Counted from the first letter of the stretch, positions 36,267-42,300 are shown. The stretch is 64,000 nt of DNA from Paecilomyces variotii (GCA_004022145.1 RCNU01000004.1); one strand, 5' to 3'. Numbers and translations: made by a program. Notes: a model not told the origin generated them from the sequence alone.

Positions 36267-36817
36267 GACTTCTAGAAATATGCATACAGATCGAGCTCAA
36301 ATACTCACTGACATCAAGCATGCCCTCTATCAGAAGAGCATAGATGGCCAATACACTCGTCACCCTTGGTCAGTAGAAGCTAACAATATAGAGCAGAGTA
36401 TTGACGTGGTGGGACGTCAAGCTCGGGGATGTTTCCGGGTCTCTTTTTGAGTGGTGCGCGAGGAGTGGGTCCAAAGACCTCCAACATCCCAAAGGAATCA
36501 CTATTCCTATCGTCAATATAATACACCTGCACCTTGCTTGAATCGGTTTCTGTCCTGGTGGTCTTAATCTGTGCTTCCAATTCTGACCGCTATATGAAGA
36601 AGATTCTTCACAATTAGTTGGGTTTAACCACGTGACAAGTACACGACCTCCATCGAATACTACCAGCCTATCTGCGGTGATCTTTACGAAGTCTCTCTTA
36701 TATTGCTTTCAATCTCCTTCATCCAACTTTTATTATCCTCTATCAAGTTCGTTTCACCTGCACTCTTGCAGGTCCTGAAAGCAATTCTTAAAAAAAGAAA
36801 GGGGAAAGGAAAGGAAA

Positions 36818-37684
36818 ATGACAACCATATCCACCCCACCGATAGAAATGCCACACGCAGAACCTACATCTCCTTCTACGACTCCAATCGAGATCTCATT
36901 TCCACTTCCAAAGACACCTCATACGACAGCCCATGTTCACCTGACTTTCCTGGCTACCTCAACCATGGTCTTTCTGGCCACGACGACGCCGGGAGATTCG
37001 GCGGGGACGATGAAGCCGCTGGGGAGTTTTGTGTATGCGATGCCGGATGTAGGTTTATTTTTTCTGATCTTGATTTCCTGTCTATCTTTATTTTCCTATG
37101 GTCCTACTCCTGTATCGTTGTTCAAGTGTTTATTCTTGATTTCCCTCTATTTTGGATTGATTTTGCGCTTCCCGGTTTATTCGCTTTTATGGCTTTGCAT
37201 ATTATTTCCTGATCTGGAAGAGCACTCGTTCTCTTCTAATAATATTCTGGGCCCGCATCGAACCCGTTTCAACTCTCCCCATGCAGTCACGCCCTGCCCT
37301 TCTATCGCGTTCCCGCTACTTATATAGCCTACCAATGTATCTTGCTCTACATCAACTCACCCCTTTGCGAGCCCAGTGCATTCATGCATGCATGACAAAA
37401 TATTGAGTGAACATATACTAACAAATATCCAGCGCACAAACACCCGCCCCGCACTCTCCACGGCGCTCTACACATCTCCCGCTAGCATCGACTACGCGAC
37501 GCGAACGGCAAAGATCCTCGCGCGTCGCATGCGTCGTCCCGTCTATGTCGGATGTAGCATCGACACGGTGGCGGCCGGTTCAACGGCCGAGGAGGAAATG
37601 GAAGGGCTAGCGAAGATCGTGGACGAGATTATGAAGAAGTGGGATGAGAAACAGAGGGCAGATGGTGTTGTTAATGGCGTGTGA
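36818..37684 (+). CDS. Probable 20S proteasome assembly chaperone (PAC4-like), 2 exons
   Basis: LGSFVYAMPD|RT...STALY...DYATRTAKILARRMRRPVYVGCS pattern. Intron 37049-37432 (GTAGGT...ACTAAC...CAG). Confidence 0.65.
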
Positions 37685-37936
37685 ATCTGGGACAGGTTCT
37701 TAGCAAAAAAGAAGATGAGGACGAAGACACTACTTTGCGAGGACAGTTTGCTGTGCTCCTAAGTTGTTGATGACTTGATGAGCGTATTCTGTTTAACCCT
37801 TGGATTGACCGCAGTTTTAATAACTTAGGATTCTCCTCTGATTGTGTAATCCACCAGTTGATGCGGCTTCGTGAAGCCGTTCTTCAGATATAATCAAACA
37901 TGCCTGTCTACCGCTATCTAGATCCCCTGTACAGGA

Positions 37937-37964
37937 ATATATATATATATATATATATATATAT
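37937..37964. repeat. (AT)14 microsatellite
   Basis: Uninterrupted AT dinucleotide run flanked by GA...TC, making a perfect palindrome. Confidence 0.9.
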
Positions 37965-38362
37965 TCTTGTTACCTACGGGGCAAGATATATGTTGGCCTC
38001 AAACGAGCAGGGTTGATGAGAAGAATTTGCAATCATCTGCTCGGGGTAATGACCATTCTATTTCAAAATGTGTCACCAGGTCGGTGGGCCTTTATCTAAT
38101 CATGGACGTCTGTTTTAGTTAATGTGCGTCGCCAACAGACCTAAAACTGTACGTTTTGATCTTTCGTATTGGAAAATTGCAAAAGAATGGCTTGATATTA
38201 TCGGAGAATCCAAAAAACATAGGAATTCGATTTGAACCCTCAAAGTGAGGGAAATGCCTAGCCTCTGAGATATACAAGTACATGTAGTGAAATGACGAAC
38301 TCTTTTATAATAGCACAAACGTGGTATAAAATGTCAAAAAGGGAGATTTTATGTATCACATC

Positions 38363-38488
38363 GCCCGGATGGTCTAGTGGTATGTTACAAATGGCACCCT
38401 CGCAGCCAATCATCATTGCTAATTCAAATTCAGGTATGATTCTCCGTTTGGGTCGGAGAGGTCCCGCGTTCAAATCGCGGTTCGGGCC
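38363..38488 (+). tRNA. tRNA-Pro(UGG) copy 1, interrupted in the D-loop by a 54-nt spliceosomal-type intron (exons 38363-38379 and 38434-38488)
   Basis: Joined exons read GCCCGGA TG GTCT AGTG|GTA TGAT T CTCCG TT TGG GT CGGAG AGGTC CCGCG TTCAAAT CGCGG TTCGGGC C (72 nt): 7-bp acceptor stem, 5-bp anticodon stem around TGG, 5-bp T stem, A and B boxes, downstream T run. Confidence 0.92.
38380..38433 (+). other. Spliceosomal-type intron inside tRNA-Pro copy 1
   Basis: Donor GTATGT (38380), branch GCTAAT (38418-38423), acceptor CAG (38431-38433). Confidence 0.82.
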
Positions 38489-38499
38489 TTACCTTATTC

Positions 38500-38506
38500 T
38501 TTTTTT
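38500..38506 (+). terminator. Pol III oligo(dT) terminator of tRNA copy 1
   Basis: T7 run starting 12 nt after the discriminator base. Confidence 0.75.
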
Positions 38507-38576
38507 CCTTTTTTTCTTATTGAGCTGTCATTATATTTTCTTAGAGCATCTCCGAAGAGAGTTCTATTACAGCATC

Positions 38577-38711
38577 GCCCGGATGGTCTAGTGGTAAGTT
38601 ACCAAATATCTATATGTCACACTAGTCTTTGTCTGTCTCTAACATTCTCTCCTCAGGTATGATTCTCCGTTTGGGTCGGAGAGGTCCCGCGTTCGAATTG
38701 CGGTTCGGGCC
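38577..38711 (+). tRNA. tRNA-Pro(UGG) copy 2, interrupted in the D-loop by a 63-nt spliceosomal-type intron (exons 38577-38593 and 38657-38711)
   Basis: Exons identical to copy 1 except G57 and T61 (GTTCGAATT). Same insertion point between G18 and G19. Downstream T run. Confidence 0.88.
38594..38656 (+). other. Spliceosomal-type intron inside tRNA-Pro copy 2
   Basis: Donor GTAAGT (38594), branch TCTAAC (38638-38643), pyrimidine tract and acceptor TTCTCTCCTCAG (ends 38656). Confidence 0.82.
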
Positions 38712-38723
38712 TATGCTTCATTC

Positions 38724-38732
38724 TTTTTTTTT
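38724..38732 (+). terminator. Pol III oligo(dT) terminator of tRNA copy 2
   Basis: T9 run starting 13 nt after the discriminator base. Confidence 0.75.
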
Positions 38733-39322
38733 CTTCTCTTTTAATTTGATTCCTCACCTTGACTTTCCAAGTTATTTATTACCATGTCAAGGTGGATTCA
38801 ATTGATTCATTAATTGAACCATCGGGCAGGCGTGATGTCGTCCTGTGTGGTGGGACATGAGTCTCGACAAATGAGTCGATAGGAATCCTTTTTTCTTTGG
38901 ACTGAAGATCTTCATGACACCAAGTGAAGATGAGAGAACTAACTACTAAGGTGGTAGCTACTGTTTGGCGTATCGAGAGATGGTATCGAGTAATATCTCA
39001 TTCTCATTGTTGTTTTACTCTTTGTATAGGAAAGCAGTAACTCTTTAAATACTCATCACTACTTGGGACTCTCGTACCATTTTCATAATTGAAGTATCGC
39101 CATAAGCAAAGAGAGGGAGAAGGCTAACGAGCCCATGCTACGGAGAAAATTGAAGTATTTTTTTTACCAGTACTCTTTTATATTATCAGAATCCGCCATA
39201 GAGGGTGAGGCCCTCATCATGAAAGCGACATTGGAAGAAGGAAAAGAAAGAAGCAGATTTCACATCAATAGTAATACAAAGAGTATTAAACCTTCCATGT
39301 ATGATATCCATCCATTCGTCCA

Positions 39323-42300
39323 TCAAGCCTTCGCACTGACTTCAACGCCTGCCTTAGTTTCATTCATGGAACCCTGTCCAGACCCGTTGGTTGTAGGAGC
39401 AGACGGTGGTCCCTCAGCCCACATGGGAGCGATGGTTTCTACCGCTCTCTCAATCACAACCCTCACTCTATCTCTCAATACGGCGTAGGAGCATTCGACA
39501 TTTAGATCCTCCAGCCAGACACGAGCGACGTGCTTATCGACCTTGATCTCGATTCCGGGGAAGGGGATTCCGAGAGCATTTAGGCGAGCGAGCTCTGCTG
39601 CCTCGGCCTCAGCGACATCTTCAGCATCTTCTTCCTCTTCTTCCTCCTGTTCTTCCGCATTGGAGGCTGGAGTTTCAGTGCCGGGTTCGGTCTTAATGGC
39701 GCTAGGTGTCGACACGCCATCCTGGCTCTTTGCAGCGGACAGGTCTTTAGGGAGACGAGGACGTTCGATTGGGACAATGTCTGATCCGAACTGTGCTTCT
39801 AGCATCATCAAGAGGCGCCCAAAACGCTCTTCTGGGCCAAGATTCGAGTGTGGGTTCGGGGGAAGTGGAACATCATGGCTATGGTGGTTGTGCTTGCTGG
39901 ACTCTGTGATCCGGAATGCCAGTTAGTCCTATCATGCGACAGTAGTTGGGAAGACAGTAGATCTGAAACATACGCTTTACGGAAGCAGGGCTGCTTTCGA
40001 CTGTCAGAAGCACGGCCATAACTGCATCAGCTACCCCGTCGTTCATCATGTTACCCTCCCACTCCAGCTCGACCTCACGAGTGCGGGCCATATATCTGAC
40101 AACCACGCAGCCCATCACAAGATATGCGTGGTCCTCTTCGTGAGGGATTTCCTCGTCAGCAGCCTCAACTTTCTCCAAGTGACCGTTTTTGCCGTTGATT
40201 GAATCGTCTCCGTTTTCCTTTTTAGCCAGCTCCTGGTGGCTGACACCGATCTCTTCTATCGCACCAAATGTGCCCTCAAGGGCCCATTTTATCAAATCCA
40301 TGCTTGCTGAGCTAAGCGTGATGTGTTGCTTGCAGGTAATGGTCGTTGTTGTCAGGCCCGCATACTCGCGGAGGTCATCAGGCGCCATCAGCGACAGGTT
40401 GAATCCGTTCTGAACCAAGACCCCCGCCATCAGACGGCCATCATCTTGTTCTGATGGGGGAGTGATCTCCGCCAACTTGCCGACAACTTTGGCGACCTTG
40501 TCTTTTCGGAAAGGTATGCGTACTTCTTCACAGTTGGCAGGCGTGTAGATCTTAACCTTCACTGTCTTCTCGGAATTAAGACTGAGGAGTTTGGATTTAA
40601 GACGCATCATTTGGTGCTTCTCGCCATGTACCAGGATCTGGGATAGGATGTCAGTTCAAATTGCCCACGCATAGTAAAGGACAATATACATACTACAACA
40701 GGAGCAGCGACTTCTTCGATAAAATTCCGATTCTCCACGCCATCAACGTGTGCCGCGAAACTGATCTCATCAATGGTACATCTTCTCGGGATCATGACCT
40801 TCTGCTCCTGATCACCAGCAGTCGGGACTCGACCTCGGACAGGCAAGGCTGCCGTCCTGGACATGACTGCAGGGATCTGCTCCGGTTCATTGAGAAGTTG
40901 CTTAGCCATAGTTCCTTCAACGCTATAACCCGTCATAACAACCCCATTTCGTTCGCTAGGCGCCCATCTTTCCAAGAGCTCCCTACTTGTTCCGGTTTGG
41001 AGCATACCAGGAGAAGCTAGCATAACGCAACTACCGACGTCATCAAAACGCTCCAGACTTCTTAGACTGCGAACAAATTTGAAGTCCCAAGGCCCCGCGC
41101 TGACGCTCTTGTCGCCTCTGGCCTCCGCTTCTGCCATCCGCTGACGGAAAAGACGCTTGATGTTGTCGTTCATGGCACCAATGTAGGTCTGATAGACAAC
41201 CATACAGCGACGTGCTGTGTTTCCAATATAGTAGATAGGGATCTTCTGGAGCTCTGGGTGCTTCTCCCAGTATTCATCCAAGATCAAAAGTAGTTCCTGT
41301 GCACGACCCAAAGCAAACACAGGCATGAGAACCCTGCCTCCTCGGTTCAAAACACCAGTGACTGTCTTCATAAGAGCTGCTTCACGCTCTAGTCGAGGAG
41401 GGTTCGATGAGATACCGAATGTCGATTCCGTAATGAGAACATCGATCTTAACGCCTCTGGGAACCTCTGCAGGTATCAGATGGCGGTCCTCTTCTCGAGA
41501 GTAGTCGCCAGTGAAAAGTATGTTGAGCCCAGCAATGGATACCAAAAACATAGCAGCACCGAGGACATGGCCAGCGGGGAAAGGAGTTACGCGGATACTG
41601 TTTATTGTGTGGGTCGTGTTGAAGTCAATTGTCTCGATTAGGGGCAGGGTCGACAGGTGATCGTGTTCTGTGTATAGTGTCGTCCGTTGGTCTGATGATG
41701 AAGATGTATTGCTGACTCGGACGTTGTCTTGGATAAGCCATTTGTAGATTGCTTTGGTTGCATGCGTCATGAAGACACGGCCTTTGAAGTTTGTCTTGCT
41801 CAAGACATAGGGGAGGGCAGAGGAGTGGTCGACGTGGAAACTGTAGTGATACAATACTCATACATTAGCTATTTCTGCAAGCGAATAGAATTGAAAGTCG
41901 CGACACATGAATGGATCAAGAGGTTGCGAGATGCTCGCAACCATACGAGAGGCTTTGACAGTAGGGCGTACGGGAGGACAAATATCCGATAATGTCAGAC
42001 TGAAGATATTGTATTGTTTCTCTGATATACATGCAGTCAAGTATAAAGGGTGTGTGGTATGATCCTCTTCCAGCGGTGCTGCTCGAGTATGGGCTTTTAT
42101 CCGCTCCGTATACAGCACACCAGGTAGACACTCCAGTGATATTATATCTGCGTGACAACAAGCTCGAATGAAAGAAAGAGATCGGACGTACTGGCTGATA
42201 AGGAGTATGTCAACTGTGCTGAGATCGAACTCGTCGAAGAATGGAAGAGAGGCAAAGCCTTCTTTTGCAGGGTGCATGCCAGCATCAAGCTATCGGTCGT

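What the first reader, a model, noticed from the sequence alone, without database searches (positions are those of the whole stretch)
38380..38656. The two tRNA introns have diverged except at splice signals, a signature of selection for splicing
Seen: the exons of the two copies differ at only 2 of 72 nt and share the CATC leader. The introns differ in length (54 vs 63 nt) and align only at the 5' end (GTATGTTACAAAT vs GTAAGTTACCAAAT), the CTAA branch core and the terminal TCAG. The donor difference swaps one consensus fungal donor for another. Inference: one ancestral insertion was duplicated, the intron body drifted, and both exons and splice signals stayed constrained. Dead pseudogenes would be expected to decay uniformly.
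Basis: partly seen in the sequence, partly recalled or inferred. Interest (0 to 1): 0.8.

Follow-up and report, generated by a model that had tools for sequence, protein, structure and literature searches.

The report
Spliceosome-type introns inside two tRNA-Pro genes
Two neighbouring proline tRNA genes of a Paecilomyces-like mould are each split in the D-loop by a short intron carrying messenger-RNA-type splice signals, and public RNA data show one of them cut out exactly, which breaks the textbook rule that nuclear tRNA introns sit only beside the anticodon.

Summary
Two tandem tRNA-Pro(UGG) genes (38363-38488 and 38577-38711, + strand) are each interrupted after G18 of the D-loop by a 54-nt or 63-nt GT...AG insert. 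Removing the insert restores a perfect 72-nt cloverleaf in both. The exons differ at 2 of 72 nt. The inserts align only over the 5' 13-14 nt, the CTAA branch core and the final TCAG; their bodies are no more alike than shuffles. Standard finders (ARAGORN, Rfam) miss both genes.

New evidence:
- One RNA contig of a public run joins exon 1 to exon 2 of copy 2 exactly at the predicted junction. Neighbouring mRNA introns are also spliced in that run.
- A metagenome scan that did not require splice signals found 4 further D-loop-interrupted tRNA-Pro loci, 3 of them with GT...AG. One lies beside a Chaetothyriales-like gene, and two also carry an ordinary 37/38 intron.
- I found no strict bulge-helix-bulge motif.
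- Seven literature searches found no report of spliceosomal introns in tRNA genes.

Best reading: these are functional tRNA genes whose intron the spliceosome removes, as in the fission-yeast U6 gene. Which polymerase transcribes them, whether splicing needs the spliceosome, and whether intron-free copies exist remain untested.

The parts
38325..38330 (+). TATAAA, 38 nt upstream of copy 1; a possible upstream promoter element for either Pol III or Pol II
   Evidence: Its function is inferred. Upstream TATA boxes matter for tRNA genes of some fungi (passage of PMC3978253).
38363..38379 (+). Copy 1 exon 1: acceptor 5' strand, D-stem and D-loop up to G18
   Evidence: With the first G of the insert, the A-box-like TGGTCTAGTGG stays unbroken in the DNA (38370-38380).
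38380..38433 (+). Copy 1 intron, 54 nt: donor GTATGT, branch-like CTAAT at 38419-38423 with 11 nt after the A, acceptor CAG
   Evidence: Longest T run is 2. RNA splicing of this copy was not observed; it has no cover in run X3.
38434..38488 (+). Copy 1 exon 2: G19 to discriminator C, with anticodon TGG and T-loop TTCAAAT
38500..38515 (+). Two T7 runs (38500-38506 and 38509-38515), 12 nt behind copy 1; terminator-like for Pol III
   Evidence: function inferred
38577..38593 (+). Copy 2 exon 1, identical to copy 1 exon 1
38594..38656 (+). Copy 2 intron, 63 nt: donor GTAAGT, branch-like CTAAC at 38639-38643 with 14 nt after the A, acceptor CAG
   Evidence: It is absent from the RNA contig of run X3, which joins exon 1 letters directly to 38656/38657.
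38657..38711 (+). Copy 2 exon 2. It differs from copy 1 at T-loop position 57 (G) and at position 61 (T at 38699; C in the strain of runs X1/X2)
38724..38732 (+). T9 run, 13 nt behind copy 2; terminator-like for Pol III
   Evidence: The X3 RNA contig reads through it.
38656..38884 (+). Stretch covered by the spliced RNA contig of run X3 (244 nt, depth 4.7). The contig begins with 14 letters of exon 1 and ends 5 nt before a T6 run (38889-38894).
   Evidence: (tables 7 and 8). Contigs do not give the strand; + is inferred from GT...AG.

Best explanation
These are two live tRNA-Pro(UGG) genes that each carry an mRNA-type (U2-type GT-AG spliceosomal) intron in the D-loop, between G18 and G19.

Proposed path:
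1. The gene is transcribed, most likely by RNA polymerase III from the internal A and B boxes. The first three intron bases, GTA, repeat G19-U20-A21, so the A-box sequence stays intact in the DNA.
2. U1 recognises GUAUGU or GUAAGU, and the branch-point machinery recognises CUAAU or CUAAC.
3. Two transesterifications remove the intron and rebuild the G18-G19 D-loop.
4. Ordinary end processing then gives a 72-nt tRNA.

Shown: the interrupted genes exist in DNA, the cloverleaf is perfect once the insert is removed, and copy 2 RNA carries the precise junction. Inferred: that the spliceosome does the cutting, which polymerase transcribes, and that the product is charged and used.
For: - Removing the insert gives tRNA-Pro(tgg) in 2 of 2 copies, with U8, A14, G18G19, U33, the T-loop and the acceptor stem in place.
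- Donor, branch and acceptor match two RNA-verified introns 0.5-1.3 kb away. All three signals together occur in 2 of 127,892 window segments of 54 nt.
- In run X3 the neighbouring PAC4 and ysh1 introns are spliced. One contig (244 nt, depth 4.7) consists of 14 letters of exon 1 followed by 38656-38884 with 0 mismatches. Rebuilt in a script, it is an exact substring of intron-less copy 2 plus its trailer. The junction 31-mer is absent from the window DNA on both strands. Intron 2 has no cover in X3.
- A metagenome scan blind to splice signals gave 5 loci: 1 false positive and 4 D-loop-interrupted tRNA-Pro loci. Three of the 4 have GT...AG: L001 GTAAGT..ACTAAC..CAG, L002 GTAATT..GCTAAT..CAG, L004 GTTAGT..TAG. 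The same pattern has 0 matches in 185,579 prokaryote genomes and 0 in viral contigs.
- Exons are 70 of 72 identical, while the intron bodies and distal flanks are randomised.
- T7, T7 and T9 runs follow the genes, and neither intron has a run of 4 or more T.
- Precedent: the S. pombe U6 gene carries an intron that the spliceosome removes (passage of PMC5855946); that U6 is a Pol III transcript comes from the listed abstract of PMC2082468.
Against: - The RNA evidence is one low-depth contig in one run. Only 14 letters lie on the exon 1 side. Contigs can be chimeric and show neither strand nor ends.
- Copy 1 splicing was not seen.
- The contig runs through the T9 run to 38884. That fits a Pol II or read-through transcript better than a normal Pol III product.
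- Runs X1 and X2 show only the unspliced form, but they behave like DNA because the neighbouring introns are also unspliced there.
- No genome is held, so intron-free tRNA-Pro(UGG) genes may exist and make these two dispensable.
- Copy 2 carries T at the near-universal C61.
- L002 has a weak donor (GTAATT) and sits among decayed fragments. L004 is a decayed tRNA. L005 has a non-GT-AG insert at the same site.
Confidence: 0.7

Rival explanations
1. The pair is made as a Pol II transcript. Transcription starts just upstream of each gene, the spliceosome removes the intron co-transcriptionally as in any mRNA, and RNase P and RNase Z then cut the tRNA out. This rival concerns the polymerase only; the intron is still spliceosomal.
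For: - The only spliced RNA seen reads 173 nt past the tRNA 3' end, through a T9 run.
- It comes from a library in which mRNAs dominate (depths 382-642 for the neighbours against 4.7).
- TATAAA lies at -38 of copy 1.
- Spliceosomal introns are described as a feature of Pol II transcripts (passage of bioRxiv 10.1101/2025.06.17.660180).
Against: - A-box and B-box sequences are intact, and T-runs sit 12-13 nt behind both genes.
- X3 has no cover of the spacer 38489-38576 or of anything upstream of tRNA position 3.
- An mRNA-enriched library would select rare read-through molecules whichever polymerase is the main one.
- Pol III read-through past terminators is on record in yeast (title and abstract of PMC4937561, as listed).
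Confidence: 0.25
2. The two genes are dispensable relics. The insert inactivated a tRNA-Pro gene, the pair persists by recent duplication or gene conversion, and the junction seen in RNA is incidental splicing of a rare transcript that yields no working tRNA.
For: - C61T in copy 2 hits a conserved position and is polymorphic.
- L002 and L004 show that interrupted tRNA-Pro copies do decay.
- It is unknown whether intron-free copies exist.
- The spliced RNA is at low depth.
Against: - Flanks and intron bodies are randomised, yet 70 of 72 exon bases and every stem pair survive in both copies. The second strain restores G53-C61.
- All three splice signals are kept in both copies.
- The same architecture is intact in L002, and L001 keeps strong signals.
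Confidence: 0.12
3. The insert is a non-canonical tRNA intron removed by the tRNA splicing endonuclease and ligase through a bulge-helix-bulge-like fold, as in archaea, Cyanidioschyzon merolae or nucleomorphs. On this view the GT...AG ends are coincidental.
For: - D-arm introns of that kind exist in archaea and C. merolae (papers listed; passages of PMC3978253).
- L005 has a non-GT-AG hairpin insert at the same site in an otherwise intact tRNA-Pro(AGG).
Against: - My scan found no strict helix-bulge-helix-bulge-helix motif in any register. The best scores are reached by 102 of 500 (copy 1) and 220 of 500 (copy 2) shuffled inserts. The scan is weak, though: 2 of 3 ordinary 37/38 introns used as positive controls also failed to beat shuffles.
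- Recognition by eukaryal endonucleases depends on the 37/38 location (PMC3978253).
- Complete donor, branch and acceptor signals occur by chance at about 1.6 in 100,000.
Confidence: 0.06

Closest known systems
mRNA-type (spliceosomal) intron of the Schizosaccharomyces pombe U6 snRNA gene and other fungal U6 genes (Tani and Ohshima 1989, 1991; Canzler et al. 2016, as cited in PMC5855946; passages read)
   Same: A short intron with canonical 5' splice site, branch site and 3' splice site inside a small, highly structured non-coding RNA gene of the Pol III class. It is not conserved outside the signals and occurs in fungi.
   Different: The host here is a tRNA, not a spliceosome component, so the usual origin story (reverse splicing into an RNA sitting in the catalytic centre) does not apply directly. 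Pol III transcription and spliceosome dependence are not shown here.
Spliceosomal introns in U1, U2 and U5 snRNA genes and in rDNA of ascomycetes (Takahashi et al. 1993, 1996; Bhattacharya et al. 2000, as cited in PMC5855946)
   Same: mRNA-type introns in fungal genes for stable RNAs, including genes not transcribed by Pol II (rDNA).
   Different: The host RNA classes differ. That review's list of hosts does not include tRNA.
Canonical nuclear tRNA introns at 37/38, removed by the tRNA splicing endonuclease (PMC3978253; bioRxiv 10.1101/2025.06.17.660180)
   Same: A short intervening sequence in a nuclear tRNA gene that must be removed to make the tRNA. L001 and L002 carry such an intron as well (19 and 14 nt).
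   Different: The position is D-loop 18/19 instead of 37/38. The ends are GT...AG with a branch motif. No bulge-helix-bulge motif was found.
Non-canonical BHB introns in D-arms of archaeal, Cyanidioschyzon merolae and nucleomorph tRNA genes (papers listed; PMC3978253)
   Same: The interruption lies in the D-arm, and the genes are missed by standard tRNA finders.
   Different: Those are defined by the BHB motif and cut by the endonuclease. Here the signals are those of the spliceosome, and the host is a filamentous ascomycete.
Group II intron in the D-stem of plastid trnG-UCC (recalled from my own knowledge; no call)
   Same: A lariat-type intron in the D-arm of a tRNA gene.
   Different: It is organellar, hundreds of bases long and self-folding. 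It is not a 54-63-nt nuclear intron dependent on snRNPs.

Membership tests
U2-type GT-AG spliceosomal intron | 5' splice site GT with an extended fungal donor (GTRNGT) | tested here: met
   GTATGT in copy 1 and GTAAGT in copy 2. This is the same type as the RNA-verified neighbour introns GTAGGT and GTATGT.
U2-type GT-AG spliceosomal intron | Branch motif CTRAY a short distance upstream of the 3' splice site | tested here: met
   CTAAT with 11 nt after the A, and CTAAC with 14 nt after the A.
U2-type GT-AG spliceosomal intron | 3' splice site YAG | tested here: met
   Both inserts end in TCAG.
U2-type GT-AG spliceosomal intron | Precise removal at these sites in RNA | tested here: met
   Met for copy 2 only, by one contig of run X3. 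Copy 1 has no cover in X3.
U2-type GT-AG spliceosomal intron | Lariat intermediate and dependence on snRNPs | not testable with these tools
   Needs branch reads, debranching mutants or splicing mutants.
Nuclear tRNA intron cut by the tRNA splicing endonuclease | Location between positions 37 and 38 | tested here: not met
   The insert lies between G18 and G19 of the D-loop.
Nuclear tRNA intron cut by the tRNA splicing endonuclease | Bulge-helix-bulge or relaxed hBH motif at the exon-intron junctions | tested here: inconclusive
   No strict motif was found, and the scores do not exceed shuffles. However, 2 of 3 ordinary 37/38 introns used as controls also failed, so my scan has little power.
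Functional cytoplasmic tRNA-Pro(UGG) gene | Cloverleaf with conserved positions and a Pro anticodon | tested here: met
   Met after removal of the insert: ARAGORN of 2. Unspliced, ARAGORN default finds 0 genes and Rfam at gathering threshold finds 0 matches.
Functional cytoplasmic tRNA-Pro(UGG) gene | Pol III control elements: A box, B box and a downstream T run | tested here: met
   Read from the sequence only: TGGTCTAGTGG, GTTCAAATC or GTTCGAATT, and T7, T7 and T9 runs. Copy 2 has T at position 61 of the B box. The consensus sequences are recalled.
Functional cytoplasmic tRNA-Pro(UGG) gene | A mature, charged tRNA is present in cells | not testable with these tools
   The runs held are mRNA-type or metatranscriptome contigs.
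mRNA-type intron in a Pol III non-coding RNA gene (S. pombe U6 type) | The host gene is transcribed by Pol III | not testable with these tools
   Inferred from the promoter and terminator elements. The one RNA contig reads through the T9 run.
tRNA pseudogene | Stem-breaking changes and loss of conserved positions | tested here: not met
   All stems pair in both copies. The only weakening is G53-U61 in copy 2 of this strain. For contrast, L004 and the fragments in L002 are visibly decayed.

The most novel reading that the evidence does not exclude
Eurotiomycete fungi hold a hidden class of Pol III-transcribed tRNA-Pro genes whose maturation depends on the spliceosome. In some lineages (L001, L002) a single 72-nt tRNA needs both the spliceosome (D-loop intron) and the tRNA endonuclease (37/38 intron). 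Standard tRNA finders miss these genes, so current fungal tRNA gene sets would lack them, and proline decoding would be coupled to spliceosome activity.
Probability: 0.4. Interest if true: 0.9.

Novelty: new variant of a known kind. Interest (0 to 1): 0.8.

Why it matters
Current reviews treat spliceosomal introns and tRNA introns as unrelated classes handled by separate machines, and place nuclear tRNA introns only at 37/38. A tRNA gene with a working mRNA-type intron would cross that line. It would add tRNA to the short list of stable RNAs carrying such introns: U6, U1, U2, U5 and rRNA.

It would also give a simple natural substrate for two open questions. One is whether the spliceosome acts on uncapped Pol III transcripts with a 17-nt first exon. 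The other is how introns enter non-coding RNA genes; here the site, G|GTA, is repeated at both ends of the insert.

On the practical side, ARAGORN and Rfam miss both genes. ARAGORN with its intron option miscalls them as tRNA-SeC and tRNA-Glu. Fungal tRNA inventories and codon-adaptation measures may therefore be incomplete.

Tried and rejected
- **Whole genome:** none is held for the window. I could not ask whether intron-free tRNA-Pro(UGG) genes exist, nor scan other isotypes genome-wide.
- **Synteny in related Eurotiales:** no fungal genome collection is on hand. The records behind L004 and L005 are not held for a search.
- **Earlier notes of this scan:** nothing for this place or sequence, and two word look-ups gave nothing relevant.
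- **Other interrupted tRNAs:** I removed every GT...AG of 35-130 nt (59,772 candidates from the window, L001, L002, L004 and L005) and ran ARAGORN. Of 16 calls, the 7 in the window all lie at the two Pro genes. There is no third case in the 64 kb.
- **Intron repeat family:** a short-word BLAST of both introns, the spacer and the flanks against the window and the loci gave only self hits. I saw no introner-like family.
- **Bulge-helix-bulge scan:** nothing above shuffles, but the positive controls were weak, so I count it as inconclusive.
- **Runs X1 and X2:** they are labelled RNA, but they carry the neighbouring mRNA introns unspliced in contigs of 1.9-12.6 kb. I treat them as DNA-like. They say nothing about unspliced precursor.
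- **Absence of T4+ runs in the introns:** by my own rough estimate (no call) this is expected by chance often enough that I give it little weight.
- **Papers:** PMC8007984 ('missing tRNA genes') has nothing on fungal Pro tRNAs or introns. PMC6108506 lists only A. niger tRNA-Pro(AGG) genes with 19-nt introns in its Table 1. Its S1 Table with all 284 gene models is a supplement that I could not see, and it may show whether Pro(TGG) genes were predicted there.

Full report
**What is there.**
On the + strand lie two tandem genes that become tRNA-Pro(UGG) once a short insert is taken out.
- Copy 1: exon 1 38363-38379, insert 38380-38433 (54 nt), exon 2 38434-38488.
- Copy 2: exon 1 38577-38593, insert 38594-38656 (63 nt), exon 2 38657-38711.

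With the insert removed inside a script, ARAGORN calls both as 72-nt tRNA-Pro(tgg) with every stem paired. Left as they are, ARAGORN finds no tRNA in the 64 kb, and Rfam has no match at gathering threshold. With its intron option ARAGORN miscalls them as tRNA-SeC(tca) and tRNA-Glu(ctc).

The insert sits between G18 and G19 of the D-loop. G|GTA(TG) is repeated at both ends, so the cut can slide by -1..+5 nt in copy 1 and -1..+3 nt in copy 2. Exactly one register in each copy is GT...AG. The intron starts with GTA, so the A-box-like TGGTCTAGTGG is unbroken in the DNA.

All counts hold.
- The exons differ at 2 of 72 positions: position 57 A/G, and position 61 C/T.
- The inserts are 54 and 63 nt.
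- They align over GTATGTTACAAAT against GTAAGTTACCAAAT, the CTAA core and the final TCAG.
- The whole inserts score 4.5 against -4.4 +/- 3.4 for shuffles (5 of 500 reach it). The bodies alone score -8.5, which 466 of 500 shuffles reach.
- The 100 nt upstream are unrelated (164 of 300 shuffles reach the score). The proximal 40 nt keep a trace of similarity (5 of 300).
- Branch-like CTAAT and CTAAC have 11 and 14 nt after the A.
- The combination of GTRNGT, a CTRAY 8-30 nt from the end and a terminal YAG occurs in 2 of 127,892 54-nt segments of the window.
- Two introns of the neighbouring genes, verified by RNA, read GTAGGT..TACTAAC..CAG and GTATGT..GACTAAC..CAG. The tRNA inserts therefore use this organism's own splice signals.

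**Context.**
The pair lies in a 1.27-kb gap between the 3' ends of two convergent genes.
- Upstream is a PAC4 proteasome-chaperone gene on the + strand. RNA contigs end at 37914-37925.
- Downstream is Ysh1/CPSF73 on the - strand. RNA contigs begin at 39192-39199.
- The Ysh1 piece is 99% identical to Paecilomyces variotii proteins, so the Eurotiales attribution is right.
- TATAAA lies 38 nt upstream of copy 1.
- T7 and T7 runs follow copy 1 by 12 nt, and a T9 run follows copy 2 by 13 nt.

**RNA evidence.**
No genome is held. Public runs were found with 36500-40500 (24 listed, 19 holding some of it, 8 studies), and four were laid.
- Runs X3 and X5 are RNA: both skip the PAC4 intron (37048^37433, GT..AG) and the ysh1 intron (39903^39974, CT..AC).
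- In X3 one contig (244 nt, depth 4.7) lies on 38656-38884 with no mismatch. It carries 14 loose letters in front, and these are letters 3-16 of the tRNA (38579-38592, identical to 38365-38378).
- Rebuilt in a script, loose letters plus stretch are an exact substring of copy 2 without its intron. The junction 31-mer is absent from the window DNA on both strands.
- X3 has no cover of intron 2, of the spacer or of copy 1.
- This is direct evidence, though thin, that RNA from copy 2 (its exon 2, with T at 38699, and its own 173-nt trailer) exists with the intron removed at the cloverleaf-restoring junction.

Limits of this evidence:
- It is one contig in one run, and contigs can be chimeric.
- The 14 letters cannot tell whether exon 1 came from copy 1 or copy 2.
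- The contig reads through the T9 run and stops 5 nt before the next T6 run.

Runs X1 and X2 are labelled RNA but carry all neighbouring introns unspliced in long contigs. I read them as DNA-like. They confirm the interrupted genes in a second strain, with two differences nearby: 38282 A>G and 38699 T>C. The second restores G53-C61 in copy 2.

**Relatives.**
I scanned JGI metagenome contigs for the D-loop exon end, 40-70 free bases, and the exon 2 start plus anticodon loop. No splice signal was required. Five loci came back.
- L003 is a false positive, an array of 24 tRNA genes.
- L001 is a tRNA-Pro(AGG) with a 51-nt insert GTAAGT..ACTAAC..CAG, plus an ordinary 19-nt 37/38 intron. The contig ends inside the T arm, just after a further GTTAGT.
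- L002 is a tRNA-Pro(TGG) with the same acceptor stem as the window. It has a 51-nt insert GTAATT..GCTAAT..CAG and a 14-nt 37/38 intron. ARAGORN accepts it once the D-loop insert is removed. Decayed fragments of the same gene surround it.
- L004 has a 57-nt insert GTTAGT..TAG, one base further 3' (after G19), and a 23-nt 37/38 intron. Its T arm and acceptor stem are damaged and ARAGORN rejects it. A neighbouring FHA-domain gene is 80% identical to Exophiala and 76-78% identical to Fonsecaea, Cladophialophora and Capronia, all Chaetothyriales.
- L005 is an intact tRNA-Pro(AGG) with a 47-nt hairpin insert that is not GT...AG.

So 3 of 4 true D-loop interruptions carry GT...AG. The same pattern has no match in the prokaryote genome collection or the viral contigs. 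The taxa of L001, L002 and L005 are unknown.

**Mechanism.**
I commit to spliceosomal removal (confidence 0.7). The signals are complete and species-typical. The junction in RNA is exact. The site is one where a eukaryal tRNA endonuclease, which depends on the 37/38 location (PMC3978253), should not act.

My bulge-helix-bulge scan found no strict motif and nothing above shuffles (102 of 500 and 220 of 500 shuffles reach the scores). However, 2 of 3 ordinary 37/38 introns also failed it, so I count that test as inconclusive.

Pol III is my preferred polymerase, because of the intact A and B boxes, the T runs and the U6 precedent. The one RNA seen is better explained by read-through or by Pol II, so I leave this open at roughly 55:45.

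How the intron arose is inference only. The repeated G|GTA(TG), and an exon sequence that already resembles a donor, fit either reverse splicing into an AG|GT-like site or an insertion with a short target duplication.

**What is known.**
Seven full-text searches found no report of a spliceosomal intron in a tRNA gene.
- D-loop and D-arm introns appear only for archaea, Cyanidioschyzon merolae and a plant database.
- The U6 review (passages read) lists mRNA-type introns in U6, U1, U2 and U5 snRNA genes and in rDNA, but not in tRNA.
- A 2014 review says nuclear tRNA introns lie exclusively at 37/38.
- A 2025 preprint calls the intron classes unrelated.
- The library lacks most subscription journals, so a prior report cannot be excluded.
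- An unchecked note of this scan (e1-4091646) describes an mRNA-type intron in a tRNA-Ala gene of an Ostreococcus-like alga. I did not test it.

**Verdict.**
I class it as a new variant of a known kind: an mRNA-type intron in a stable-RNA gene, with a tRNA as a new host. Still open are the polymerase, spliceosome dependence, splicing of copy 1, whether intron-free copies exist, and how far the trait extends.

Noticed in passing
L005 9188-9263 (+): An otherwise intact tRNA-Pro(AGG) gene carries a 47-nt GC-rich hairpin insert at the same D-loop site. The insert is not GT...AG, and CTAGTG is repeated at both of its ends. It could be a small palindromic insertion with a target duplication, or another intron type.
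   Followed up: partly
L001 minus strand, last 54 nt of the contig: After ...TTCGAATCG of the T arm the sequence continues with GTTAGT instead of the rest of the stem. This may be a second mRNA-type intron in the same tRNA-Pro(AGG) gene. The contig ends before any 3' exon.
   Followed up: no
L002 minus strand, about 180-850 in reverse-complement coordinates: Around the intact interrupted tRNA-Pro(TGG) lie at least four decayed pieces of the same gene: a 3' half, an inverted exon 1 with the start of the intron, and two intron-end-plus-exon 2 pieces. The gene was therefore copied at DNA level together with its intron.
   Followed up: partly
L003 (2592 nt): 24 tRNA genes are packed into 2.6 kb on one strand, covering many isotypes. 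This dense tRNA array in a metagenome contig was a false positive of my pattern.
   Followed up: no
window 38363-38488 and 38577-38711: ARAGORN with its intron option reports the two loci as tRNA-SeC(tca) and tRNA-Glu(ctc) with 36-nt and 56-nt introns. Automatic annotation could carry this miscall into public records.
   Followed up: yes
window 38748: In run X1 a contig leaves the window sequence at 38748 and goes on for about 255 unlike letters. This may be a structural difference or insertion 37 nt behind copy 2 in another strain.
   Followed up: no
window 37049-37432: The PAC4 gene has a 384-nt GT..AG intron, long for this fungus. It is spliced in X3 and X5. X3 also holds a low-depth contig (13.8) running unspliced through it, which points to intron retention or an internal transcript.
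   Followed up: no
window 39627-39656: Short contigs of very high depth in X1 and X2 lie on a GAT/GAC-type repeat inside ysh1. They are probably shared low-complexity words from other organisms in the metatranscriptome.
   Followed up: no
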